A stretch of DNA of 64,000 bases, taken from NCBI RefSeq assembly GCF_024502345.1, contig NZ_JALDNN010000001.1, one strand, 5' to 3'. The stretch comes from Escherichia coli (GTDB lineage: Bacteria > Pseudomonadota > Gammaproteobacteria > Enterobacterales > Enterobacteriaceae). The notes below the pieces were generated by a model. It was not told the DNA's origin and did no database searches. It saw only the letters and a list, made by a program, of their open reading frames with translations. The position numbers were made by a program, and so were the translations under genes. Positions 18,990-32,010 of the stretch are shown piece after piece (the first letter of the stretch is position 1; every line of letters starts with the position of its first letter).

Positions 18990-19085
18990 ATTCATTGCCT
19001 GATGCGACGCTTACGCGTCTTATCATGCCTACGGGAACCTGACCGTAGGCCGGATAAGGCGTACACGCCGCATCCGGCATAAACA
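18990..19085. repeat. REP/BIME palindromic elements downstream of aldB
   Basis: gcctgatgcgacgcttacgcgtcttatcatgcctac and gtaggccggataaggcgtacacgccgcatccggc, a typical inverted REP pair. Confidence 0.6.
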
Positions 19086-19509
19086 AAGCGCACGTTGTTA
19101 CAATTTACGTTTTAAACCTACGTGCGCAATAACCCAGACTACGCCAACAGAAGTGCGTTTCTGGGGCGTGTTTTGTCAGGAGTTTAATCTCGCGTTTCGA
19201 TGGTGAGCGGGCGAACCAGGCCGTAAATCACCATTGGTGATCCGAGGCCAATCAGCAATAAACGGTAGATAATTGAAGGTTTAATACGCTTAATCTGTAC
19301 TGTGGATGTTTTACTGGAGTTATTCATTAGTTTGGCCAATAGTTCCACTATTTCAATATGATAAACCTCGTCCTGTTGAAAAACCAGACAGCACATTTCA
19401 GAAAGTATATAAAAAACAATATGTCGTTATATAAATAAGGAAATTGCACTGCATCATGGCATTTCATAATATGCGTTAATTGTTCTTTTTTATATTCTTT
19501 GAGGGAAAT

Positions 19510-19833
19510 ATGTTCCTGGACTATTTTGCACTGGGAGTGCTTATTTTTGTATTTCTGGTGATATTCTATGGGATTATTATTTTACATGATATTCCCTACC
19601 TGATTGCTAAAAAACGTAATCATCCTCATGCCGACGCCATTCATGTTGCTGGTTGGGTGAGTCTTTTTACGCTGCATGTTATCTGGCCATTTTTGTGGAT
19701 TTGGGCCACGCTTTACCGCCCGGAGCGGGGATGGGGAATGCAAAACCATGACTCCTCCGTTGTGCAACTACAACAGCGTATTGCCGGGCTGGAGAAACAG
19801 CTCGCCGACATCAAATCCTCTTCTGCCGAGTAA
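19510..19833 (+). CDS. yiaW: Small inner-membrane protein YiaW (DUF3302), paralog of YibI
   Basis: Begins [21 protein letters not shown], 107 aa; near-identical N-terminal region to YibI. Confidence 0.85.
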
Positions 19834-19838
19834 TACTT

Positions 19839-20975
19839 ATGGATTTACTGATTATTTTGACCTATGTGGCTTTTGCATGGGCAATGTTTAAGATCTTCAA
19901 AATTCCTGTAAATAAATGGACCATTCCCACAGCGGCCCTGGGTGGCATATTTATTGTCAGTGGTTTAATTCTGTTAATGAACTATAACCATCCGTATACC
20001 TTCAAAGCGCAAAAAGCGGTTATTTCTATTCCTGTTGTCCCACAGGTGACAGGTGTGGTGATTGAAGTGACGGATAAGAAAAATACGCTGATTAAAAAAG
20101 GTGAGGTGCTATTTCGACTGGACCCGACGCGTTATCAGGCGCGGGTGGATAGGCTGATGGCGGATATCGTTACCGCAGAACATAAACAGCGGGCGTTGGG
20201 CGCAGAGTTAGATGAGATGGCGGCGAATACTCAGCAGGCAAAGGCCACGCGGGATAAATTCGCTAAAGAGTATCAGCGTTACGCACGCGGCAGCCAGGCG
20301 AAAGTAAACCCGTTTTCAGAACGCGATATTGATGTGGCGCGGCAAAATTATCTGGCGCAGGAAGCCTCCGTAAAGTCATCGGCGGCGGAACAAAAACAGA
20401 TCCAGAGCCAGCTGGATAGCCTGGTGTTGGGTGAACATTCTCAAATCGCCAGCCTGAAAGCGCAGCTCGCGGAAGCAAAATATAACCTTGAGCAGACGAT
20501 AGTGCGTGCGCCGAGCGATGGTTATGTGACCCAGGTGCTGATTCGTCCGGGTACCTATGCCGCGTCGCTGCCGCTACGTCCGGTGATGGTGTTTATACCC
20601 GATCAGAAACGACAAATCGTGGCGCAGTTCCGTCAGAACTCCTTGCTGCGCCTGGCTCCCGGCGATGATGCGGAAGTGGTATTTAACGCTCTGCCAGGCA
20701 AAGTGTTCAGCGGTAAGCTGGCAGCCATTAGTCCAGCTGTTCCCGGCGGAGCTTATCAGTCGACCGGCACCTTACAGACGTTAAACACAGCGCCGGGTTC
20801 AGATGGCGTTATCGCGACCATTGAACTGAATGAGCACACTGATTTGAGCGCTTTACCAGACGGTATTTACGCCCAGGTGGCGGTCTACTCTGATCATTTC
20901 AGCCATGTCTCGGTGATGCGCAAAGTGTTATTACGCATGACCAGCTGGGTGCATTACCTTTATCTCGATCATTAA
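19839..20975 (+). CDS. yiaV: HlyD-family membrane-fusion-like protein YiaV, paralog of YibH
   Basis: 378 aa, collinear with YibH at roughly 75 percent identity by eye. Confidence 0.85.
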
Positions 20976-21946
20976 TCTTCGCTTTCCGCCGCTTGTTCAG
21001 GCCGCAGTTGCTGCGACTGAGCAAGCTGGTGGCGAATTTCACGCAGCATTTCATCCAGCACATACTGGACCCGCCAGGGCTGGTATTCCCGTTTACGGAA
21101 GATAGCCACCAGATCCAGCCACCATTCATACGGGTGCTGAAAGCAGGGCACCAGCGTGCCGTCTTGCAGATCGCTCTGCACACTTTTGTCTGGCGCAAAC
21201 ACAATCCCCAGGTGATTTCGTGCCAGCTCCAGCGCCGATTGCGTGTTGTCGCAAACGTAATTTCCCTTCACGCGATAATCCCGCACCTCTTTACTCCCAG
21301 CGACGTTGAAGCGCCAGATATTCGCGTCGTCGATCATCATCGAGTCGATCAAAATACAGGAGTGATGTTCGAGTTCGTCAGGACGGCTAATGGGATGTTT
21401 CTCAAGATAGCGCTGGCTGGCATAAGCGGTTACGGCATATTGGGTAATAAAACTGGCAACCAGCGATTCATCTTTTGGTGGGGCATAGCTGATTAAAACA
21501 TCACAATCATCAGGAAATTCGACGCCTTCATAAAAGGCATTACGCTCAAGATTGCAGGTTTTTAGCGATAAGGTGATATCACCGATATCTTTAATTTTAT
21601 CGATTACATGTTTGGATAAATAGGTAATTATGCCGGTTGGGGCGTAGATGGTGACCCGACCACGTTTCTCATGCTTATAATCTGCAATAAAATTATTAAG
21701 CTGCTCGTTTCTGTCCAGCATGTCGTTGATGTACGGTAACAGCGCGGTACCAAAAGGTGTGAGCATCAGCTGCCGGGTGGTTCGGTCAAAGACTTTTAAA
21801 CCCACTTTTGATTCAAAATCAGCAAGGTATTTGCTGACGTTGGCCTGTGCGATGCCAAGTACAGTCGCGGCATGGCTGATATTTTCACTGGCAGCGATTA
21901 CCGAGATAATTTTTAACTCCCGGTACTTAAGTTGTAATTTTGTCAT
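20972..21946 (-). CDS. yiaU: LysR-family transcriptional regulator YiaU
   Basis: 324 aa with N-terminal HTH; convergent with yiaV, 4-bp stop overlap; divergent from yiaT. Confidence 0.88.
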
Positions 21947-22069
21947 CGCAACAGCCCAATTATATATAATTTTATATATTACTATATAAATATGAATCTT
22001 GCACCGGAGAAATTGTAAGCATTACTATGCCGATTCTTTTTTATCTTATTTTAAAATGGAATACCGGAC

Positions 22070-22810
22070 ATGTTAATTAACCGCAGTATTGTGGCGTTAT
22101 TTGCGTTGCCTTTTATGGCAAGCGCAACTGCTTCTGAATTATCCATTGGTGCTGGTGCGGCTTATAATGAATCGCCTTATCGCGGTTATAATGAAAATAC
22201 AAAGGCAATTCCGCTGATTAGCTATGAAGGTGATACTTTTTATGTTCGTCAGACCACGTTAGGTTTTATTCTGTCGCAAAGTGAAAAAAATGAACTTAGC
22301 CTGACCGCATCCTGGATGCCGCTGGAATTTGACCCTGCCGATAATGACGATTATGCCATGCAACAGCTTGATAAGCGTGATAGTACGGCTATGGCGGGGG
22401 GTGCCTGGTATCACCACGAGCGTTGGGGAACCGTGAAAGCCTCTGCAGCTGCGGACGTTCTGGATAACAGCAACGGCTGGGTGGGGGAGCTATCGGTATT
22501 CCACAAAATGCAGATAGGTCGTCTGTCGCTGACACCTGCGCTGGGCGTTCTCTATTATGACGAGAATTTCAGTGACTATTACTATGGCATTTCAGAGAGT
22601 GAGTCCCGTCGTAGCGGTCTGGCAAGTTATTCCGCGCAGGATGCCTGGGTGCCCTATGTCAGCCTGACGGCAAAATACCCGATAGGAGAGCACGTCGTAT
22701 TGATGGCGAGCGCAGGATACAGCGAGCTGCCGGAAGAGATTACCGACAGCCCGATGGTTGATCGTAATGAGAGTTTTACCTTTGTCACTGGCGTGAGCTG
22801 GCGTTTTTAA
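22070..22810 (+). CDS. yiaT: Outer-membrane protein YiaT (MipA/OmpV family)
   Basis: 246 aa with signal peptide and C-terminal aromatic residue (ends SWRF). Confidence 0.85.
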   Translation: MLINRSIVALFALPFMASATASELSIGAGAAYNESPYRGYNENTKAIPLISYEGDTFYVRQTTLGFILSQSEKNELSLTASWMPLEFDPADNDDYAMQQLDKRDSTAMAGGAWYHHERWGTVKASAAADVLDNSNGWVGELSVFHKMQIGRLSLTPALGVLYYDENFSDYYYGISESESRRSGLASYSAQDAWVPYVSLTAKYPIGEHVVLMASAGYSELPEEITDSPMVDRNESFTFVTGVSWRF

Positions 22811-22939
22811 TTCACCGGTGGAAGTCGGTGCGGCTGGCCTACGCTCTCGCACCGACTTGTAGGCCTGATAAGACGTGTTAAGCGTCGCATCAGGCAATGT
22901 GCACCCTACGTTGGATGCGGCGCGAGCGCCTTATCCAAC
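22811..22939. repeat. Terminator hairpin plus REP elements between yiaT and the GH127 gene
   Basis: 11-bp stem aagtcggtgcg / cgcaccgactt (22822-22858), then REP-like gtaggcctgataagacgtgttaagcgtcgcatcaggc and gatgcggcgcgagcgccttatcc. Confidence 0.55.
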
Positions 22940-24910
22940 TTACGGATGGCAATGCTTTTCCTCATTCACCCAGATCTTCATTTCGCCTTCACCCCGGTTA
23001 GCCCAGCTAAACCACGGGATAAAGGTCAGAGTTTGCGGCTGGCGTTTGGCTGGGGCATAGTCGTAATGCCACAACGGTTGTTGTTCTGGATTGCTCTGTT
23101 CATACCGGTAACCCGGTGCCTGGATTAAGATCTTATGGCTGAACAATCCCTTACCTTCAAATGTCGTAAATGGCGCATCGGCGGGCAGCCACAGATTATG
23201 CAGTGACTCGCCGTTGTCGGCCTGTTCCAGGCAATACACCAGCAGGCCGCGCTGAATCGCCACTTTTCCGGCGACGTGACGCACCAGCGGGTTACCGTAA
23301 ACGCGGCGTACCGGCATCGGCAAAGTCAGATTCAGCGTATCGCCCTCCTGCCATTCGCGGGTAATGTGCAAATACCCTTTACGAATATCCTGCTCGACCT
23401 CTTCCCCATTCAATATGATCTGCGGCTGTGTGCACCAGTCCGGCAGACGTAAAGCCAGCGTATGACGTACCGGCTGGGGCGATTCAACCGCAATCGTCAC
23501 CTGCTCCTGCCACGGATAGTTCCCGCTAACCCGCAGGCGCAGCGTGCCATTTTCTACCGGCACTTCCATGCTGTTTCCTGCGTAGATGTTGATATACAAC
23601 GCATCTTCACGCGGCGTGTAGAGATAATGACCAATCGAGGTCAGCACGCGGGCGATATTTGGCGGACAACAAGCGCAGCCAAACCAACGCTGGCGGATCG
23701 GTTTAACGTGATCGTAGATATGGTTGAATTTCAGCGATTTTGGATGTACTTCCAGCGGATTCACATAGAAGAAATGTTTGCCATCCAGCGCCATGCCGCC
23801 GAGCACGGTGTTGTACAGTGCGCGCTCCATCACATCGGCATATTGACTGTCGCCTTCCATTTCCAGCATTCGTCGGGCAAACATCATCAGGCCGATGGAG
23901 GCGCAACTTTCAGCGTATACCGTGTCATTCGGCAGATCGTAATCGCTAGTGAACGCTTCGCCGCTGCTTTGCGAGCCAATGCCGCCGGTAATATATAACT
24001 GACGCTGGGCCATATTGTTCCACAGCCGCAGGCAGTCCTGACGCTTGCTGTCATCGTGACTTAAACGCGCGAGATGCGCGACGCCGGTCATCAGATAGAC
24101 AAAACGTACCGCGTGACCGATGGCGGTTTGCTGTTGCGCAAGGGGCAAATGTGCCTGGCTGTAGGCTTTGTCTTTCACCATCCACGCCGGGCCGTAGGTG
24201 TGCCAGTGCGATGTCTGCCCGCGCTTTTCATATTCCTGGTCGTAATAGTGCGGTTGCGCACCACGCTGTTCGACAAAATAGTTCGTCAGCGCCAGGTAGC
24301 GCGGCTCTTCAGTCACTTCATACAGGCGCATTAGTGCCAGTTCAATTTCCGGGTGACCAGGATAACCGTGTAACTTACTTTCATCTGGACCAAATACGCT
24401 GTCGATATTATCGGCCAGGCGGCAAACGACCCCCAGCAAGCGCCGTTTTCCCGTGGCCTGGAAGAAGGCGACTCCGGCTTCAATCAGATGACCTGCGCAG
24501 TAAAGTTCATGACACTCCGCCAGATTGCTCCAGCGTTCTTCGGGTGCTTTTACCGTAAAGTAAGTATTGAGATAGCCGTCTTCGCATTGGGCGGAGGCGA
24601 TCAGTTCGATTACCTCGTCGGCGGTTTTTTCCAGTTCGGCGTCCGGCTTCTGGCACAGCGACCAGGCTACCGCTTCCAGCCATTTGGCGACGTCGCTGTC
24701 CTGAAACACCATCCCGTAAAATTCACCCTCCTGAAGTCCGGCGGCAATGCGAAAGTTTTCAATCGCATGGCTGGGTTCCGCTTCTGGGATACGATCGTTC
24801 AAGGCATCCCACTGATAAGGAATCACCACGTCGCGGACCAGTTGTTGGTACTGACCGAGGAACGGATCGCTGACCGTCAGTTTATGCAGATCGACTTCCG
24901 AAATGTTCAT
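22940..24910 (-). CDS. Glycoside hydrolase family 127-like enzyme (beta-L-arabinofuranosidase family, DUF1680)
   Basis: About 656 aa from ATG at 24910 with AAGGAG RBS. Contains E-x-C (ESCAS) and, about 77 residues later, CACCPPN, matching the spacing of the Zn-binding/catalytic Glu338/Cys340 and Cys417/Cys418 of HypBA1 as I recall it. Confidence 0.7.
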   Translation of the reverse strand: MNISEVDLHKLTVSDPFLGQYQQLVRDVVIPYQWDALNDRIPEAEPSHAIENFRIAAGLQEGEFYGMVFQDSDVAKWLEAVAWSLCQKPDAELEKTADEVIELIASAQCEDGYLNTYFTVKAPEERWSNLAECHELYCAGHLIEAGVAFFQATGKRRLLGVVCRLADNIDSVFGPDESKLHGYPGHPEIELALMRLYEVTEEPRYLALTNYFVEQRGAQPHYYDQEYEKRGQTSHWHTYGPAWMVKDKAYSQAHLPLAQQQTAIGHAVRFVYLMTGVAHLARLSHDDSKRQDCLRLWNNMAQRQLYITGGIGSQSSGEAFTSDYDLPNDTVYAESCASIGLMMFARRMLEMEGDSQYADVMERALYNTVLGGMALDGKHFFYVNPLEVHPKSLKFNHIYDHVKPIRQRWFGCACCPPNIARVLTSIGHYLYTPREDALYINIYAGNSMEVPVENGTLRLRVSGNYPWQEQVTIAVESPQPVRHTLALRLPDWCTQPQIILNGEEVEQDIRKGYLHITREWQEGDTLNLTLPMPVRRVYGNPLVRHVAGKVAIQRGLLVYCLEQADNGESLHNLWLPADAPFTTFEGKGLFSHKILIQAPGYRYEQSNPEQQPLWHYDYAPAKRQPQTLTFIPWFSWANRGEGEMKIWVNEEKHCHP

Positions 24911-24920
24911 CTTGTGCTCC

Positions 24921-26321
24921 TTAAGGCTGTACATGACGCTGACGCAGGTCGGTAGCTATGCGTGACATCATAGGATTATTGAGTTTGCAAAAGCGGATCG
25001 CCCCTGCCAGCAGCAGGTGGAATAGCGCAGGCAGTAATGTTTCCATCGCCGCGATCCCGCCAAGCGAACTGGCGGTCTGGTTTTCCACGCCAGGCTGGTA
25101 GGCGACAAAAATAAACAGCAGGCTGATGATCCCGGCGCTGGAGGCCCAGGCCAGCTTGATGAAAAACAGATTGAAGGCGAAGTTCATGCCGGAAGAACGT
25201 ACGCGGGTTTTCCACTCGCCGTAGTCATCGGCAAAGGCCATCAATGAGAAGTGCAGTGGCAATGTGAAGCCAAGAATTACGCCATTACCGAGGATCACCG
25301 CCAGCCACAGCGTTTGATAAGCCGGGCCGGAGGGCAGGAACCACATCAACACCGCCAGCGCAGCGAGGAGCAGGTTGGTGTAGTAGTAAATTTTGACGGT
25401 ATCGAAACGCCGCGTTAACGGGCTGACAATCACCGAGCCGATAATGGAGGCGAAGGTGACCATGGTGAAGAACAGCGACGTGTAGCCCGTACTGCCTTGT
25501 AAGACGTAGGTAATGAAGTACATATACCCACCGCCGCGAATGTTAAAGACGTTAATCAGCAGGAAAGACATGACCAGCATCAGCAGCAGTTGGTCGTTGT
25601 TCCGCAGCCCGGCAAGATGTTCGCGCAGGGTAAATTTCCCCATTGTGGAGAGCGGCACCCGTTCACGAACCCAGAAGAAACAGCACAGGAACATCACCAC
25701 GGCAATGGCGCACAATACCCCGACGCCCAGTTGATAGCCGCGTGCAGCGTTGCCCTGACCGAAGAGATCTACCATCCACGGTAAGCCTACCGAAACCAGA
25801 AATCCCGCTACGCCGCAGAGAACGAATCGCCAGGGCTGGCAGGAGATCACTTCATTGTGGCGGGTGGTCATGGTGTTGATCAGCGCGCAGTACGGTACGT
25901 TGATGGCGGTATAACCGACTGAAAGGAGCAGGTAAGTACCGAACGCCCAGGCGATTTTTACTCCCATGCTGGCATCTGGCACGGTGAACGTCAGGATGCC
26001 GATAATGCCGATGGGAATGGCAATCCATAGCTGCCACGGACGAAAGCGCCCCCAGCGACTTTGCGTCCGGTCGGCAATGACGCCCATCACCGGGTCGGAG
26101 ATGGCATCAAACACGCGCAGTGCAATAAACAGCGTGCCAACCAGCGCCGGAGTTAATCCAAAAACGTCGGTGTAGAAAAAGGTGAGAAAATTCATGATCA
26201 GGCAAGTTATTACGGTGCCGCCTGCGTCACCCAGGCCGTAGCCTATTTTTTCCCGTACAGATAACGCATCGTCAATTTTACCTTTAGCGATATCAGCGGT
26301 AGTAATCGGTGTAGAGGTCAT
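24921..26321 (-). CDS. Glycoside-pentoside-hexuronide (GPH) family sugar:cation symporter (MelB-like)
   Basis: 466 aa, multi-TM; N-terminal GYGLGD motif typical of GPH transporters; immediately upstream of and co-directional with the GH127 gene. Confidence 0.75.
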
Positions 26322-26546
26322 AGATATTCCTCGTGAATAGGGAGCAATTTTTAGTTTTATTGAAATGACCTGATTAATTCTGCCGTGAACGGGAATATCA
26401 ACAAGGCGAGAAAAGAGTAAAAAAAGGTGACGATTCCGACCTGAATTTAAAAGTGTGAAATGGATCAGGTGAAATTAATGTTTTTGATTAATAATCAAAA
26501 GGTAATGTGTTTAATCATTAATGAATAAGCGGGAAATTACATATCA
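26322..26546. promoter_or_regulatory. Divergent promoter region between the GPH-GH127 operon and the AraC-family regulator gene
   Basis: 225-bp AT-rich intergenic region between divergent starts; contains a partial CRP-like motif tgtgaaatggatcagg. Confidence 0.4.
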
Positions 26547-27362
26547 ATGCTCGAATTATCCATGACGTTACCGATTAAAGTGCAAAATGGTGGATTATTT
26601 ATTTCCCGTGGCGTAGGGAGGCATCCTGCAAGGCGGCTGGAGTCATGGGAAATTATCTTTGTCGAAAAAGGTCGATTAACGATTCAGGAAGAAGAACGGA
26701 TATTTCTGGTCGATGCGGGAGAGAGTTTATTACTCTGGCCGAACCGACAACATGTTGGGGTGGAGGATTTTCCCGCCGATCTCAAATTTTACTGGCTGCA
26801 TTTTGAGGTTAAAGCGCCGGACAACGACCCTCGCTGGCTTACTCATCTTAGCGTGCCGCAACAAACGAAGGTTGTCGATCCGCAGGCGCTGGTGGCCCTG
26901 TTTCGCCAGTTCTTAAGCGAACAGGAAAAGCATCAACGCACTCCGGCGCTGGAGTTTATTGTGCTGCTCATTTTGCAGCAGCTCACCCGTGACGCGCGTC
27001 TTGATGAACAGGCCGATGGCGCAGGCACCACCCTTGCCTGGAAAGCGCAGAAACTGATCCGCACGCAATATCATCGCCCGCTTTCTACGGCGCTTCTGGC
27101 CCGCGAGCTGTACTGCAATGCCGATTATCTTGGGCGCGTCTACCGGCGGGTGTTTCATCTGACGTTAACAGAAGCAATCCATCGCCAGCGGGTGCGCGAA
27201 GCCGAAAAGCTGTTAATTAGCGAAGCGCGATCGCTCACGGAAGTGGCGGCGTTGTGCGGGTTTAATGACGTTGGCTATTTCCGGCAGATTTTTCGCAAAC
27301 ACACCGGTTTAACGCCAGCAGCGTGGAAGCGGCGTTACAGCAAGGAACATATCAATTCGTAG
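26547..27362 (+). CDS. AraC/XylS-family transcriptional regulator
   Basis: 271 aa; cupin-like N-terminal half and C-terminal double HTH (RELYCNADYLGRVYRR ... VGYFRQIFRKHTGLTPAAWKRRY). Confidence 0.8.
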   Translation: MLELSMTLPIKVQNGGLFISRGVGRHPARRLESWEIIFVEKGRLTIQEEERIFLVDAGESLLLWPNRQHVGVEDFPADLKFYWLHFEVKAPDNDPRWLTHLSVPQQTKVVDPQALVALFRQFLSEQEKHQRTPALEFIVLLILQQLTRDARLDEQADGAGTTLAWKAQKLIRTQYHRPLSTALLARELYCNADYLGRVYRRVFHLTLTEAIHRQRVREAEKLLISEARSLTEVAALCGFNDVGYFRQIFRKHTGLTPAAWKRRYSKEHINS

Positions 27363-27402
27363 TGCCGTGTCGATTTCGCTTTCGACATCACGTCTGAAAC
27401 AG

Positions 27403-27504
27403 GTGGGAGAGAAAAATCTCCTGAAACCTCTGCGTGAAACCGCGCAGGCTATTTCTAATGAACTGGGGTTTACTGTCAGGGACGACCAGGGCGCGATCAC
27501 ATAA
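27403..27504 (+). pseudogene. Possible 3' remnant of an IclR-family regulator gene (yiaJ-like)
   Basis: Start-less frame ending at a stop, encoding ...NLLKPLRETAQAISNELGFTVRDDQGAIT, which resembles IclR-family C-termini; sits where yiaJ would end next to ysaA in K-12. Confidence 0.3.
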
Positions 27505-27605
27505 CGCTTTGGACAAGTGCCAAAACTTTAACATTTCCTTCGTTGGATCAAAGCAGTAGGGACGCGCTCTCTGGCACTCTGCTGTTTTAGTGCAAAGGAG
27601 TGATC

Positions 27606-28079
27606 ATGAACCGGTTTATTATTGCGGATGCGACGAAATGTATCGGTTGCCGTACCTGTGAAGTGGCTTGCGCAGTGTCGCATCAGGAGAATCAGGATTG
27701 CGCTGCGTTGTCACCAGACGAGTTTATTTCCCGTATTCGTGTCATTAAAGACCACAGCTGGACCACGGCAGTAGCCTGTCATCAGTGTGAAGATGCACCG
27801 TGCGCGAATGTCTGCCCTGTTGACGCGATAAGCCGCGAACATGGGCATATTTTCGTTGAACAAACACGTTGCATTGGCTGTAAAAGCTGTATGCTGGCTT
27901 GCCCGTTTGGTGCGATGGAGGTCGTTTCTTCGCGCAAAAAGGCGAGGGCGATTAAGTGCGATCTGTGCTGGCATCGGGAGACGGGGCCGGCCTGTGTTGA
28001 AGCCTGCCCGACAAAGGCGTTGCAGTGCATGGATGTCGAGAAAGTGCAGCGGCATCGGCTACGGCAGCAGCCTGTTTGA
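27606..28079 (+). CDS. ysaA: 4Fe-4S ferredoxin-type protein YsaA
   Basis: 157 aa from ATG at 27606 with AAGGAG RBS; multiple CxxCxxC motifs. Confidence 0.85.
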   Translation: MNRFIIADATKCIGCRTCEVACAVSHQENQDCAALSPDEFISRIRVIKDHSWTTAVACHQCEDAPCANVCPVDAISREHGHIFVEQTRCIGCKSCMLACPFGAMEVVSSRKKARAIKCDLCWHRETGPACVEACPTKALQCMDVEKVQRHRLRQQPV

Positions 28080-28086
28080 AACGTTT

Positions 28087-28224
28087 TCCGGCGTTTCTCA
28101 ACGCCGGAATAGTGCGCTTTGTTTATGCCAGATGCGGCGTAAACGCCTTATCCGGCCTACAAATTCTTCCAAATTCAATATATTGCAGAAATTATGTAGG
28201 CCTGATAAGCGTAGCGCATCAGGC
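28087..28224. repeat. Terminator hairpin plus REP/BIME pair between ysaA and avtA
   Basis: Hairpin ccggcgtt-tctca-acgccgg; REP gccagatgcggcgtaaacgccttatccggcctac (28128-28160) and inverted copy gtaggcctgataagcgtagcgcatcaggc (28196-28224). Confidence 0.55.
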
Positions 28225-28229
28225 AATTT

Positions 28230-29483
28230 TTAGTGACTTTCAGCCCAGGCTCTTTCTATCTCTTCCGCCAGAATCTTCACCCCCGCCTCAATTTTCTCCG
28301 GCTCTGGTACGTAGTTCATGCGCATACATTGATGCGTATGCGGCCACGGTTTATCCAGTCCCGGGAAGAAGTTGTGCCCCGGCACCATCAGCACGCCGCG
28401 TGCTTTCAGGCGCTGGTAGAGTTGCTCGGTCGTAATGGGCAAATCCTTAAACCAAAGCCAGAGGAAAATGGCTCCTTCTGGTTTATGAATTAGGCAGCGA
28501 TCTTCCGGTAAATAGCGGCGAATGATGGCGATAGTTTCCTGAACACGCTGGTAGTAAAACGGTTTGATGACTGTTTCAGACAGGCGCAGCAGATCGTTAC
28601 GCTTAATCATTTCACACATCATCGCCGGACCAATACCGCCAGGTGCCAGGCTGATAATGCCGTTCATATTGGTGATGGCAGTGATGATTTTTTCATTGGC
28701 GATGATAATGCCGCAGCGGGAGCCAGGCAGCCCCAGCTTGGAAAGACTCATGCACAGCACGATATTCGGATTCCATAGCGGGCGCGCTTCACTGAAGATG
28801 ATACCCGGGAACGGGACGCCATAAGCGTTATCAATCACCAGCGGAATGCCGTGTTGATTCGCCAGCGCGTCAAGCTTCAGCAACTCTTCGTCAGTAATCA
28901 CATTGCCTGTTGGATTCGTCGGCCGGGAGACGCAAATCATCCCGGTTTCTTCGCCAATATGCAGATGCTCAAAATCGACGTGGTATTTAAACTGGCCTTC
29001 CGGCAGCAGTTCAATATTCGGACGCGCAGAGACAAACAGATCTTCTTCCAGTCCGGCGTCAGCGTAGCCAATGTATTCCGGTGCCAGCGGGAACAGCACT
29101 TTTTTGACCCGACCATCGGCACGGCGTCCGGCAAACAGATTAAATAAGTAGAAAAACGCGCTCTGGCTGCCGTTTGTTAGTGCAATATTCTGTGCTTCGA
29201 TATCCCAACCCAACTTCTCGCGCAGCATTCCGGCAAGCAGTGTGAGTAGCTCCGTTTTCCCCTGTGGACCGTCGTAATTGCACAGTGCATCAGTCGCTTT
29301 GCCACTTTCCAGCATGTCGGTCAGTAGCGTCTGGAAGTAGTCCTGCATTTCCGGGATCTGCGCCGGATTACCGCCGCCGAGCATAATCGCGCCAGGCGTG
29401 CGTAAACCGTCGTTCAGATCTTCCATCAGCAGCGTAATGCCGGAGTGGCGGGTAAATTTGTCACCAAAAAGGGAGAATGTCAT
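28230..29483 (-). CDS. avtA: Valine-pyruvate aminotransferase
   Basis: Protein begins MTFSLFGDKFTRHSG, 417 aa; ORF-track entry has a 35-codon upstream extension. Confidence 0.93.
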   Translation of the reverse strand: MTFSLFGDKFTRHSGITLLMEDLNDGLRTPGAIMLGGGNPAQIPEMQDYFQTLLTDMLESGKATDALCNYDGPQGKTELLTLLAGMLREKLGWDIEAQNIALTNGSQSAFFYLFNLFAGRRADGRVKKVLFPLAPEYIGYADAGLEEDLFVSARPNIELLPEGQFKYHVDFEHLHIGEETGMICVSRPTNPTGNVITDEELLKLDALANQHGIPLVIDNAYGVPFPGIIFSEARPLWNPNIVLCMSLSKLGLPGSRCGIIIANEKIITAITNMNGIISLAPGGIGPAMMCEMIKRNDLLRLSETVIKPFYYQRVQETIAIIRRYLPEDRCLIHKPEGAIFLWLWFKDLPITTEQLYQRLKARGVLMVPGHNFFPGLDKPWPHTHQCMRMNYVPEPEKIEAGVKILAEEIERAWAESH

Positions 29484-29660
29484 AGCGGGATATCTGTCGA
29501 ACTCTGTAGCAAGGAAGGTAACAATAACGCTACATTTGCTGGGGTGCAAATCGGTCTGTTGAAGAGTGAGCGGTGCTTTATCCTGCAACGCTGATTAGGG
29601 CTGACATTTTATCCTGGTTGGCGGCTTCCCGAGGTACTGACGAACGGGAAGCCGGAAAAG

Positions 29661-31691
29661 TCACTGTTGCCCAGCCCAGATGACCAGCACTTTATCGTCG
29701 CCATGCTCACGAACAAAGCCGTAGCCCTGCTTCAGCGAAAGTGTCGTTTGTTTGCCCGCGCCAATTGCGGGATGGCGGGCGCGGAACTGGCTGATTTTCT
29801 GCCAGTGCGCGACGTTGGCGGCAGATTTACCGCTAACATCCTGCCAGTTCATATCCGAACGTGTACCTTGCAGCGGATCAGAACCTGTAGGACCGAACGG
29901 ACGCGAGGATTCATCGCCATAAAAGATTTGTACCGCGCCTGGCGCTAATAGTAATAACTCTGCTGCTTTGTCGCCCCCTTCACGGAACAGACGGGTATCA
30001 TGCGACGAGAGGTAGCTCAACACGTTGAAACCCTGCAATTTCTCCGCCATTTGCTGCCAGGTCGTATCCATCTGCGCAATACAATCGACAGCTTTCGCCG
30101 CCTGCTCCTGATAATCGAAATTGATCATCGCATCGAAGCCGTGGCGATAGTAGTCACTTTGCATCACGCCGTGGCCCCAGGCTTCACCGGTCATCCAGAA
30201 AGGTTTGTCATCTAATGCTTTGTCGGGGTTAGCTTTTTTCCATTCGCGAAGCGCGGCGCTGGCTTCGGTTTTCAGTTGCTGCCAGGCGGGCAACTCAACA
30301 TGTTTGGCGGTATCGACCCGAAAACCATCAATCCCATAGTCGCGGACCCACTGACTTAACCAGTGGGTTAAGTAATCGCGAGGTGTAAAGCCTTCGATGA
30401 CTTTAGCGTGAGTATCCGTTTTGTTTTTATAGAACACCGGCAGACCAGAAGCGGTAGTTGATTCGGTTTTGATATCCGGCAAAAAGGCCAGCGACATAGT
30501 GAGATCGTCAAATCCAGGATTGTCGTAATCGCCGATATCCGTTCTGATCCAGTTTTTTCCCCACCATTTATCCCAGCCTGTTTTGTCGCTGAAATTAATG
30601 TAATCGTTAAAGCTATGCCAGGTTTGCCCGGCGGCAGGTTTCCAGTCGCTCCAGCGTTCACCCAGCGTTTTTTTCACTTCGTCACCAGAAAGATATAACG
30701 CGCCAAACTGATACTCCTGCATATCCGCCAGCGTGGCATAGCCGGTGTGGTTCATCACGACATCAAAGAGAATACGAATACCGCGCTGATGTGCGCTATC
30801 AACCAGCGTCCGTAGATCGGCTTCGTTGCCCATATTGGCATCAAGATTCGTCCAGTCCTGTGTGTAATAACCGTGGTAGGCATAATGCGGGAAATCGCCT
30901 TTTGTACCGCCGCCGACCCAGCCGTGAATTTGCTCAAATGGGGCGCTTATCCATAAAGCATTAACGCCCAACTGCTGGAGGTAATCCAGTTTGTTGGTCA
31001 GGCCGCGTAAATCGCCGCCGTGAAAAGTGCCAATTTCCGCCATACCGTCTTTATGACGTCCGTAACTCTGGTCATTACTGGGATCGCCGTTTTCGAAACG
31101 ATCTGTCAGCACAAAGTAAACCGTGGCGTTATGCCAGTCGAAAGGGGCAGAGGCGTCAGTTTCTGCCCGTTCCAGCAGGAGTAAACCGTTGCTGGTGGCA
31201 GCGGGTTGTAACGTTATTTGACCGTTCTTCACTATCGCAATTTGCTGGCTGTAATAATCCCGTACGGCGGCTCCTTCCAGGAAAGTGGCGCTGACATCCA
31301 GCGTGAGCGGTAATCCATCCCATTTCGGGCATACACGGACCTGGCTTGCTACCGGTTCGGCGGCGTTCTGGATGGAAATCATCAATGTTGGCGTGCCGGA
31401 GCGGGTGTCTATTTGCAGCGTATATTCGCCGTCCCTGAACAATCGCCATTGAGGCGGCGTGTTGCTACAGGGTTGCAGGGAAAGCATCTGATTGAGTTTT
31501 ATCGCATCCGCAGGCTGCCAGCACTGTTGGTCAAAATTTAGCGTTAGTGGACGCGTACCTTTGGGCAACTGCGCGTGGCTGACAAATGTTCCCGTTCCCT
31601 GTTCACTAAAGGCAGGGAACCCCGGAGAAGTCCAGCTGGCGGCAACGGCGAAGCCAGGAAGGAGTGTCAGAAAACAGGCGGCGAGTTTCAT
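29661..31691 (-). CDS. malS: Periplasmic alpha-amylase
   Basis: 676 aa, signal peptide MKLAACFLTLLPGFAVA, GH13 motifs. Confidence 0.95.
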   Translation of the reverse strand: MKLAACFLTLLPGFAVAASWTSPGFPAFSEQGTGTFVSHAQLPKGTRPLTLNFDQQCWQPADAIKLNQMLSLQPCSNTPPQWRLFRDGEYTLQIDTRSGTPTLMISIQNAAEPVASQVRVCPKWDGLPLTLDVSATFLEGAAVRDYYSQQIAIVKNGQITLQPAATSNGLLLLERAETDASAPFDWHNATVYFVLTDRFENGDPSNDQSYGRHKDGMAEIGTFHGGDLRGLTNKLDYLQQLGVNALWISAPFEQIHGWVGGGTKGDFPHYAYHGYYTQDWTNLDANMGNEADLRTLVDSAHQRGIRILFDVVMNHTGYATLADMQEYQFGALYLSGDEVKKTLGERWSDWKPAAGQTWHSFNDYINFSDKTGWDKWWGKNWIRTDIGDYDNPGFDDLTMSLAFLPDIKTESTTASGLPVFYKNKTDTHAKVIEGFTPRDYLTHWLSQWVRDYGIDGFRVDTAKHVELPAWQQLKTEASAALREWKKANPDKALDDKPFWMTGEAWGHGVMQSDYYRHGFDAMINFDYQEQAAKAVDCIAQMDTTWQQMAEKLQGFNVLSYLSSHDTRLFREGGDKAAELLLLAPGAVQIFYGDESSRPFGPTGSDPLQGTRSDMNWQDVSGKSAANVAHWQKISQFRARHPAIGAGKQTTLSLKQGYGFVREHGDDKVLVIWAGQQ

Positions 31692-31800
31692 GGCGGATGA
31701 GTCCTTATTGCTGCGATTTCAGACAGTTTGCCAGCGATAAGCCAGACAAAACTCATCCCTGAGCGGTAAGTCCACAGGATGAGAAGCAAGGGTGAGCGAT
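31692..31800 (-). promoter_or_regulatory. malS upstream region with candidate MalT boxes
   Basis: GGATGA-type motifs near 31695 and 31776; malS is a known MalT-dependent gene. Site positions are tentative. Confidence 0.3.
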
Positions 31801-32010
31801 CTCGCGCAAAAAACGGCTGAATTTTGCGATAAACCCCACATTTTCTGCGATTTAGCGCCAATCTGAATCGTTAACACGTGACATAGTTTCAGATTTGGAC
31901 TATTCCTTGGGGTGCTCTTGACAGCTATTTTTGATATGATTTGAGATTCAACTCTCAAATTTGTGAAAAATATAAGGTGTTGGAATGATTAAATCCGACC
32001 AGGAGACCTG

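What the first reader, a model, noticed from the sequence alone, without database searches (positions are those of the whole stretch)
22811..22939. REP palindromes sit at both boundaries of the replaced segment
REP/BIME-type palindromes lie at 22811–22939 (yiaT side) and 28087–28224 (ysaA/avtA side), bracketing the region that differs from K-12. REP clusters are known recombination and IS-targeting hotspots, so they may have mediated the exchange. Alternatively they are ordinary intergenic REPs shared with K-12.
Basis: inference. Interest (0 to 1): 0.25.

Follow-up and report, generated by a model that had tools for sequence, protein, structure and literature searches.

The report
Ordinary REP palindromes, not recombination joints
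The palindromic repeats are real, ordinary E. coli REP/BIME elements sitting between convergent genes, but they did not cause the difference from K-12, which comes from separate small-homology deletions of one larger ancestral gene arrangement.

Summary
Both sites hold genuine REP/BIME elements. The left site has a unique hairpin (22822-22858), a z2-type REP (22859-22897) and a degenerate y-type REP (22910-22943). The right site has the ysaA terminator hairpin and a BIME-1 (y REP, IHF-type linker, z1 REP; 28126-28225).

They are not the joints of an exchange, and there was no exchange. About 830 complete E. coli genomes carry a full arrangement: yiaT-BIME-GH127-MFS-AraC-sgbE...yiaK-yiaJ-ysaA-BIME-avtA.
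- The window lineage (426 genomes, including O157:H7) lost 8.98 kb, from sgbE into yiaJ. The junction is a 4-bp GCCG at 27364-27367, leaving a 46-codon yiaJ stub. This lies 759 bp and the whole ysaA gene away from the right BIME.
- The K-12 lineage (2460 genomes) lost 216 bp and 4,021 bp, leaving the annotated pseudogenes ysaD and ysaC. The 216-bp loss joins two GGCTGG copies (22832-22837 and 23048-23053) and removes both left REPs.

No REP sits at either end of any of the three junctions. The right BIME is shared with K-12 (4493 genomes) and is cleanly absent from most of the rest.

The left spacer does collect breakpoints of other variants, one of them inside REP1 (567 genomes).

This is ordinary and of low interest.

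The parts
22070..22810 (+). yiaT (MipA/OmpV family outer-membrane protein), the conserved left neighbour
   Evidence: ORF; Pfam MipA, E 2.4e-52; annotated yiaT in matching genomes
22822..22858 (.). Single-copy, non-REP hairpin (11-bp perfect stem, 15-nt loop). The loop holds GGCTGG (22832-22837), the left end of K-12's 216-bp deletion. The right arm (from 22849) is where genomes with hicB instead of yiaT become homologous.
   Evidence: (unique in the window); one place per genome
22859..22897 (-). REP1, long z2-type REP with GTAG at 22859-22862 on the + strand. Absent from K-12-type genomes. Replaced by a y-type REP of the aldB BIME in 567 genomes.
   Evidence: REP types from PMC8266576
22910..22943 (+). 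REP2, degenerate y-type REP (GTTGGA...TCCAAC keeps the pairing; the tail reads GTAA instead of GTAG). Its last 4 nt overlap the GH127 stop codon. With REP1 it forms one head-to-head BIME unit.
   Evidence: 20-nt arms, 80% complementary; naRNA4 66.2 bits at 22862-22940
22940..24934 (-). GH127 beta-L-arabinofuranosidase-like gene. K-12 keeps only a 190-bp internal remnant (ysaD), equivalent to window 23048-23237.
   Evidence: Pfam PF07944, PF20736 and PF20737
24921..26321 (-). MFS_2 sugar transporter gene, wholly deleted in K-12
   Evidence: Pfam MFS_2, E 3.6e-72
26547..27362 (+). AraC-family regulator gene. K-12 keeps only the last 104 bp of the gene plus 12 bp beyond its stop codon (window 27259-27374; annotated as ysaC).
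   Evidence: Pfam HTH_18 and AraC_binding
27364..27367 (.). Junction of the window-lineage 8.98-kb deletion (sgbE through the 5' part of yiaJ). GCCG is shared by both parental sequences; 9 of 11 match over 27364-27374.
   Evidence: All other genomes split at query positions 100-110 of the junction probe. 426 genomes share the joint.
27368..27504 (+). yiaJ (plaR) 3' stub, last ~46 codons. It shows that the yia-sgb operon was deleted here rather than never present.
   Evidence: IclR_C profile positions 145-174 of 174; PGAP labels it an IclR-family regulator in H31 and H32
27606..28079 (+). ysaA (4Fe-4S protein), conserved in every architecture. It separates the deletion joint from the right BIME.
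28086..28109 (+). ysaA terminator-like hairpin (10-bp perfect stem), not a REP. Still present in genomes that lack the BIME.
28126..28160 (+). y-type REP of the right BIME
28161..28195 (.). 35-nt BIME-1 linker of the L/RIB type with an IHF-core-like ATTCAATATATTG
   Evidence: Rfam ES036, 50.3 bits against gathering score 37.6; IHF role from PMC2817692
28196..28225 (-). Short z1-type REP, inverted, with GTAG at 28196-28199
   Evidence: type lengths from PMC8266576
28230..29483 (-). avtA, convergent with ysaA

Best explanation
The two palindrome clusters are ordinary E. coli REP/BIME elements occupying the 3' spacers between convergent gene pairs: yiaT and GH127 on the left, ysaA and avtA on the right.

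The left unit (z2 REP plus degenerate y REP) belongs to the 3' flank of the MFS-GH127 operon. The right unit is a BIME-1 (y REP, IHF-type linker, z1 REP). By analogy with studied REPs, their likely role is local: stable 3' hairpins that protect the convergent mRNAs from 3' exonucleases and damp read-through, with IHF binding at the right linker. That role is inferred, not shown here.

They are bystanders in the rearrangement. The ancestral locus was yiaT-BIME-GH127-MFS-AraC-sgbE...yiaK-yiaJ-ysaA-BIME-avtA.
- The window lineage lost 8.98 kb (the sgbE-yiaK operon and most of yiaJ) by illegitimate recombination at a 4-bp GCCG microhomology.
- The K-12 lineage lost 216 bp (both left REPs plus the GH127 3' end, between GGCTGG copies) and 4,021 bp (no homology). 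These two losses occurred together or in quick succession.

Comparing two reciprocal deletion derivatives makes it look like a replacement flanked by REPs.
For: Shown:
- REP identity and excess over chance.
- The full architecture in L001 is collinear with the window at 19001-27374 and 27364-32000, with nothing else missing.
- The junction sequences compared with both parental sequences.
- Remnants in both derivatives: ysaC and ysaD are annotated in MG1655 and as partial CDSs in L002. The yiaJ stub in the window matches the end of IclR_C and is annotated as such in H31 and H32.
- Counts among 5426 complete genomes: 426 window-type joint, 1253 with the left BIME next to yiaT, 2460 K-12 type with both joints, and 2460 and 2462 with each joint singly, so no intermediates.
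- No REP anywhere between the left BIME and the ysaA-avtA BIME in the full locus.
- The right BIME is collinear in K-12 and in the full type and present in 4493 genomes whatever the yia-sgb state.
- All GH127-bearing variants share the sequence from 22849 rightwards, whatever lies to the left (yiaT, hicB or aldB). The REPs therefore travel with the GH127 flank.

From the literature:
- About 30% of convergent spacers in E. coli hold a REP, and these are associated with higher expression of both genes. REP325 acts as a terminator and mRNA stabiliser (bioRxiv 10.64898/2026.03.23.713779).
- BIME-1 linkers bind IHF (PMC2817692).
Against: The left spacer (about 130 bp) collects at least four independent breakpoints: K-12 at 22832-37, the yiaT/hicB switch at 22848/9, a hybrid REP in aldB-adjacent genomes, and loss of REP2 between GGCAATG copies. 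Some structural contribution of the hairpins to breakage or slippage therefore cannot be excluded.

No expression, 3'-end or protein-binding data were available, so the functional role of these two BIMEs is by analogy only.

The polarity of events rests on remnants and on distribution, not on a phylogeny.
Confidence: 0.88

Rival explanations
1. One reading: recombination between or at the two REP clusters swapped the K-12 yia-sgb segment for the GH127-MFS-AraC segment.
For: REPs do lie near both ends of the differing stretch. K-12's left breakpoint is 21 nt from REP1.
Against: - A full type carrying both segments side by side exists in about 830 genomes.
- Remnants in each derivative show deletions, not a swap.
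- The right breakpoint is 759 bp from the BIME, with ysaA in between.
- The junctions show 0-6 bp of non-REP microhomology.
- No REP lies inside or at the ends of the lost 8.98 kb.
- REP-REP recombination between the two clusters would have removed GH127 through ysaA altogether, and that is not what is seen.
Confidence: 0.03
2. The REP hairpins contributed indirectly to the K-12 216-bp loss and to other events in the left spacer. Stable palindromes lying between short direct repeats (GGCTGG; GGCAATG) bring the repeats together on the lagging-strand template and stimulate replication slippage. REP-REP pairing produced the aldB-GH127 fusion.
For: - The 216 bp lost in K-12 contain the right arm of the hairpin plus both REPs, bounded by GGCTGG copies.
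- REP2 alone is lost between GGCAATG copies in 490 genomes.
- The 567 aldB-adjacent genomes carry, in the position of REP1, a y-type REP continuous with the aldB BIME. The switch back to window-type sequence falls within CGCATC(C/A)GGCA.
- Fold energies are strong.
Against: - The spacer is the only place where a breakpoint spares yiaT, so clustering is expected from selection alone.
- The other end of the 216-bp deletion, and both ends of the 4-kb and 8.98-kb deletions, lie in ordinary coding sequence without palindromes.
- No rate data exist.
Confidence: 0.2
3. The GH127-MFS-AraC block is a horizontally acquired island that inserted at a REP target next to yiaT. K-12 represents the empty or older state.
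For: REP/BIMEs are known targets for some insertion sequences (general knowledge). The block is absent from 45% of genomes.
Against: - K-12 retains internal GH127 (190 bp) and 3' AraC fragments in the right order and orientation. That is a deletion scar, not an empty site.
- The block is present, next to sgbE, in every non-K-12 architecture seen, including those without yiaT.
- No mobility genes or terminal repeats are present.
Confidence: 0.03

Closest known systems
E. coli REP elements of types y, z1 and z2 (palindromic units; Stern, Gilson, Bachellier; PMC8266576)
   Same: The elements have a GTAG-tagged imperfect palindrome of 30-40 nt, an extragenic 3' location, many copies per genome, and consensus tails CTTATCCGGCCTAC or CTTATCAGGCCTAC. 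REP1 is the long z2 type, 28196-28225 is the short z1 type, and 28126-28160 is the y type.
   Different: REP2 (22910-22943) is degenerate: GTAA for GTAG, and GTTGGA/TCCAAC for GCCGGA/TCCGGC. It overlaps a stop codon, so it is probably no longer a TnpA-REP substrate.
BIME-1, also called RIB or RIP (y REP, L linker with IHF site, z1 REP)
   Same: The right cluster has exactly this layout: two inverted REPs and a 35-nt AT-rich linker that matches Rfam ES036. It lies at the 3' end of convergent transcription units.
   Different: IHF binding was not tested. The element is missing as a clean 113-bp indel from most of the genomes that lack a full match.
BIME-2, and the naRNA4 unit of REP325 (Rfam RF02564; PMC4550694)
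   Same: The left pair (z2 plus y, head to head, short linker) scores above the naRNA4 gathering threshold, at 66.2 against 59.5 bits.
   Different: It is a single unit rather than a tandem array. Nothing here shows that it is transcribed as a discrete RNA. The chromosome-compaction role claimed for naRNA4 is disputed by bioRxiv 10.64898/2026.03.23.713779.
Microhomology-mediated (illegitimate) deletion leaving pseudogene scars, such as K-12 ysaC and ysaD
   Same: All three joints show 0-6 bp of homology, truncated genes on one or both sides, and a single origin shared by hundreds to thousands of genomes.
   Different: Nothing unusual. The only twist is that the two common alleles are reciprocal deletions, which mimics a replacement.

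Membership tests
E. coli REP (y/z1/z2) | Imperfect palindrome of about 29-37 nt preceded by GTAG, matching the REP consensus | tested here: met
   REP1 at 22859-22897, the y REP at 28126-28160 and the z1 REP at 28196-28225 match the tail consensus with 0 mismatches and form hairpins. REP2 matches only in degenerate form, with a GTAA tag.
E. coli REP (y/z1/z2) | High copy number, dispersed in the genome | tested here: met
   There are 8 tails in 64 kb against 0.47 expected. Probes containing the REPs hit a median of 24-36 places per E. coli genome.
E. coli REP (y/z1/z2) | Extragenic, typically at the 3' ends of transcription units | tested here: met
   Both clusters lie between convergent stop codons. 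REP2 overlaps the GH127 stop codon by 4 nt.
E. coli REP (y/z1/z2) | Recognised and cleaved by TnpA-REP (RAYT) | not testable with these tools
   This needs biochemistry. GTAG is required (PMC8266576) and is intact in three of the four REPs.
BIME-1 / RIB-RIP | y and z1 REPs in inverse orientation separated by the L linker | tested here: met
   The layout is 28126-28160 (y), 28161-28195 (linker) and 28196-28225 (z1, inverted). The linker matches Rfam ES036 above its gathering score.
BIME-1 / RIB-RIP | IHF binds the linker | not testable with these tools
   Only an IHF-core-like ATTCAATATATTG can be read in the sequence. The property itself comes from PMC2817692.
naRNA4 (Rfam RF02564) | Covariance-model score at or above the gathering threshold | tested here: met
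   66.2 bits against 59.5 at 22862-22940 on the - strand. The + strand scores 52.1 and the right cluster 37.8, both below threshold.
naRNA4 (Rfam RF02564) | Expressed as a discrete HU-binding RNA | not testable with these tools
   No expression data were available.
REP-mediated rearrangement joint | REP sequence at both parental breakpoints, or a hybrid REP at the joint | tested here: not met
   For the window-versus-K-12 difference the joints are GCCG, GGCTGG and a blunt join, all outside REPs. There is no REP in or beside the 8.98-kb segment. The feature is met only for a different variant, the aldB-BIME-GH127 type found in 567 genomes.
REP-mediated rearrangement joint | Breakpoints coincide with the REP clusters in multi-genome comparison | tested here: not met
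   The right breakpoint is 759 bp from the BIME. The left K-12 breakpoint is 21 nt upstream of REP1, in a non-REP hairpin loop.

The most novel reading that the evidence does not exclude
The yiaT/GH127 spacer is a true REP-promoted fragile site. On this reading its three stacked hairpins raise the local rate of slippage and illegitimate joining, and so explain why four independent structural variants have an endpoint within about 130 bp: the K-12 216-bp loss, the yiaWVUT/hicAB switch, the aldB-REP fusion and the loss of REP2. REP content would then shape which neighbouring operons E. coli lineages lose.
Probability: 0.15. Interest if true: 0.3.

Novelty: already known. Interest (0 to 1): 0.1.

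Why it matters
It matters little beyond correct annotation.

It shows that an apparent "replaced segment" between E. coli strains can be two reciprocal deletions of a larger ancestral locus. It also shows that REPs near the edges are expected by base rate: about 30% of convergent spacers carry one.

For strain biology, the window lineage (including O157:H7) lacks the yiaK-sgbE L-xylulose/2,3-diketo-L-gulonate operon but keeps a GH127 arabinofuranosidase-like cluster. K-12 has the reverse.

Tried and rejected
- Searched for REPs at or inside the 8.98-kb segment lost in the window, using the full-type locus L001. None lies between the left BIME and the ysaA-avtA BIME.
- Looked for genomes carrying only one of K-12's two deletions, using junction-specific probes. 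The counts were 2460, 2462 and 2460, so there are no intermediates.
- Asked whether the 22822-22858 hairpin is a repeat family. It is unique in the window and occurs at one place per genome.
- The consensus terminator scan did not flag either REP cluster or the ysaA hairpin, because no U-tract follows them.
- A literature search for ysaC/ysaD found nothing relevant to this locus.
- I ran no further search on outgroup species, because the remnants already give the polarity of the events.
- I did not build a phylogeny, so "single origin" of each joint rests on identical junction positions only.

Full report
**1. What is at the coordinates**

The window is the E. coli aldB-yiaT ... ysaA-avtA-malS region, read in the opposite orientation to K-12.

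The left site lies between the stop codon of yiaT (22810) and the stop codon of a convergent 664-aa gene (22940-22942, minus strand). It holds three hairpins:
- A perfect 11-bp stem at 22822-22858. It is single-copy and not REP-like (one place per genome).
- REP1 at 22859-22897, GTAGGCCTGATAAGACGTGTTAAGCGTCGCATCAGGCAA, the long z2 type.
- REP2 at 22910-22943, GTTGGATGCGGCGCGAGCGCCTTATCCAACTTAC, a degenerate y type. Its tail overlaps the stop codon.

The right site lies between ysaA (stop at 28077-28079) and avtA (stop at 28230-28232, minus strand). It holds:
- The ysaA terminator-like hairpin at 28086-28109.
- A y REP at 28126-28160.
- A 35-nt AT-rich linker at 28161-28195.
- An inverted short z1 REP at 28196-28225.

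This is the classical BIME-1 layout. The type names and lengths follow PMC8266576.

The REP tail motif occurs 8 times in the window against 0.47 expected. The two spacers fold far better than shuffles on both strands, with z from -4.2 to -6.6. Rfam's REP-derived models match: naRNA4 at 66.2 bits (gathering score 59.5) at 22862-22940, and ES036 at 50.3 bits (gathering score 37.6) on the right linker.

The palindromes are therefore real REP/BIME elements.

**2. What differs from K-12, and where the breakpoints are**

A 6.5-kb probe (21900-28400) against 5426 complete E. coli genomes showed several architectures rather than two.

Strain E89 (L001) carries everything: yiaT, REPs, GH127, MFS, AraC, sgbE-sgbU-sgbH-lyxK-yiaONMLK, yiaJ, ysaA, BIME, avtA. 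Pfam confirms the GH127, MFS_2 and AraC assignments in the window.

Pairwise BLAST gives these relationships:
- The window equals L001 over 19001-27374 and again over 27364-32000. The window therefore lacks 8,978 bp of L001 (21476-30452).
- A K-12-type genome (L002) equals the window over 19001-22837, 23048-23237 (90% identity) and 27259-27374. From 27364 onward it is collinear.

The junctions, read against both parental sequences:
- **Window joint.** ...CAATTCGTAGTGCCG|TGTCGATTTCGC... The left parent continues GGGCGATGAAGCCCCGGC, which is the sgbE terminator hairpin. The right parent is inside yiaJ, 141 bp before its stop. The shared bases are GCCG (27364-27367), or 9 of 11 over 27364-27374.
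- **K-12 joint 1.** GGCTGG at 22832-22837 (the loop of the non-REP hairpin) joins GGCTGG at 23048-23053 (inside GH127). This removes 216 bp, including both REPs.
- **K-12 joint 2.** Window 23237 joins 27259 with no homology, inside GH127 and AraC.

Each derivative keeps scars. K-12 MG1655 annotates ysaD (the GH127 fragment) and ysaC (the AraC 3' fragment) as pseudogenes. The window keeps the last ~46 codons of yiaJ (27368-27504), which match the end of the IclR_C domain and are labelled as an IclR-family regulator by PGAP in sister genomes.

The "replaced segment" is therefore an illusion produced by comparing two reciprocal deletion derivatives of one ancestral arrangement.

**3. Multi-genome mapping**

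Junction-centred probes gave these counts among 5426 complete genomes:

| Architecture or feature | Genomes |
|---|---|
| Window-type AraC\|yiaJ' joint (includes O157:H7) | 426 |
| yiaT-hairpin-REP1-REP2-GH127 spacer | 1253 |
| K-12 double joint | 2460 |
| K-12 joint 1 alone | 2460 |
| K-12 joint 2 alone | 2462 |
| ysaA-avtA BIME present | 4493 |

- In one search, every other genome splits at probe positions 100-110, which is 27364-27374.
- Subtracting 426 from 1253 gives about 827 genomes of the full type.
- Because the three K-12 counts agree, the two K-12 deletions always travel together.
- The full-type locus has no REP between the left BIME and the ysaA-avtA BIME. No REP was available at either end of the 8.98-kb deletion.
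- The right BIME is 759 bp from the joint, beyond the yiaJ stub and all of ysaA. It is collinear in the K-12 and full types and occurs whatever the state of yia-sgb.
- In most of the remaining genomes the BIME is missing as a clean 113-bp indel between the ysaA hairpin and the avtA stop. This is ordinary BIME presence/absence polymorphism.

**4. The left spacer is nevertheless busy**

Genomes without yiaWVUT join other neighbours to the same GH127 flank.
- **hicB-adjacent genomes.** They become homologous to the window at 22849, the right arm of the hairpin, and keep REP1 and REP2 (L005).
- **hicB with REP1 only.** 490 genomes keep only REP1. REP2 is lost between GGCAATG copies at 22893-22900 and 22947-22954 (L004, L007).
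- **aldB-adjacent genomes.** In 567 genomes aldB's own BIME runs straight into the spacer. In place of REP1 there is a y-type REP, and the sequence switches back within CGCATC(C/A)GGCA (L003). This is the only joint that looks like REP-REP recombination.

All variants share the sequence from 22849 rightwards. The REPs therefore belong to the 3' flank of the MFS-GH127 operon and are older than the polymorphism of the left neighbour.

This clustering could reflect hairpin-stimulated slippage. It is equally expected because the spacer is the only place where a breakpoint spares the flanking genes. I rate a real fragile-site effect at about 0.15-0.2.

**5. How the elements most likely work**

This section is inferred. 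Both BIMEs sit between convergent genes. In K-12 about 30% of such spacers hold a REP. REP-bearing convergent pairs show higher expression of both genes, and the model REP325 acts as a partly Rho-dependent terminator and an mRNA 3' stabiliser (bioRxiv 10.64898/2026.03.23.713779). BIME-1 linkers bind IHF and BIME-2 binds gyrase (PMC2817692).

I therefore assign both clusters the ordinary role of bidirectional 3'-UTR hairpins. None of this was measured here.

**6. Comparison with known elements, and verdict**

The elements are members of the known E. coli REP families. The right one is a BIME-1, and the left one is a single y/z2 unit that passes Rfam's naRNA4 threshold. The deletions are ordinary microhomology or illegitimate events, and K-12's scars are already annotated.

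The base rate of REPs (five clusters in this 64-kb window) makes REPs within a kilobase of both edges unremarkable.

- The REP-mediated-exchange reading is not supported.
- Novelty: already known.
- Interest: about 0.1.

Noticed in passing
window 19116-19217 (downstream of aldB); L004 3025-3310; L005 3860-4020: The window and K-12 carry a 3' remnant of the hicB antitoxin gene downstream of aldB. Genomes with intact hicAB have the cassette's left joint in the middle of the first aldB REP (...GCCTGATGCGACGCTTACGCGT|TTTACC...). So a REP-internal breakpoint does exist nearby, though it is not the one the finding is about.
   Followed up: partly
window 19210-22848 (small ORF, yiaW, yiaV, yiaU, yiaT): The whole yiaWVUT block is a presence/absence polymorphism. 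About 3719 of 5426 genomes have yiaT. The rest join aldB or hicAB directly to the GH127 flank. The right end of the block creates the unique hairpin at 22822-22858: its left arm lies inside the block and its right arm lies in the older flank.
   Followed up: partly
window 28114-28226; L008 12011-12140: The ysaA-avtA BIME-1 is absent as a clean 113-bp indel from most of the genomes without a full match, for example strain E41-1. These genomes otherwise keep the ysaA hairpin and the avtA stop codon.
   Followed up: yes
L001 17032-19011; L003 4081-6050: The GH127 gene is annotated as a pseudogene in some full-type genomes: an internal stop in E89 and a frameshift in WP3-S18-ESBL-08. It is intact (664 aa) in the window. 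The cluster seems to be decaying in several lineages.
   Followed up: no
L008 8009-8929: Strain E41-1 has an extra DUF4862 gene between yiaL and yiaM that the K-12 and E89 yia operons lack. This is another indel within the operon that the window has lost.
   Followed up: no
window 22940-22943: The tail of REP2 (GTAA on the minus strand) supplies the TAA stop codon of the GH127 gene. In strain WP3 the same REP has an intact GTAG tag.
   Followed up: no
window 21900-28400: The best match among 5426 complete E. coli genomes is only 99.2% identical over 6.5 kb (FDAARGOS_944), and O157:H7 matches at about 98-98.9%. Yet the deletion joint is the same, and the junction probe is 100% identical to FDAARGOS_943. 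The window's strain is not closely represented in the collection.
   Followed up: no
L002 16933-17122 (= window 23048-23237): K-12's ysaD remnant is only about 90% identical to any intact GH127 allele (88-92%), while the flanking sequence is about 98.4% identical. This fits a long period of neutral decay since an old deletion.
   Followed up: no
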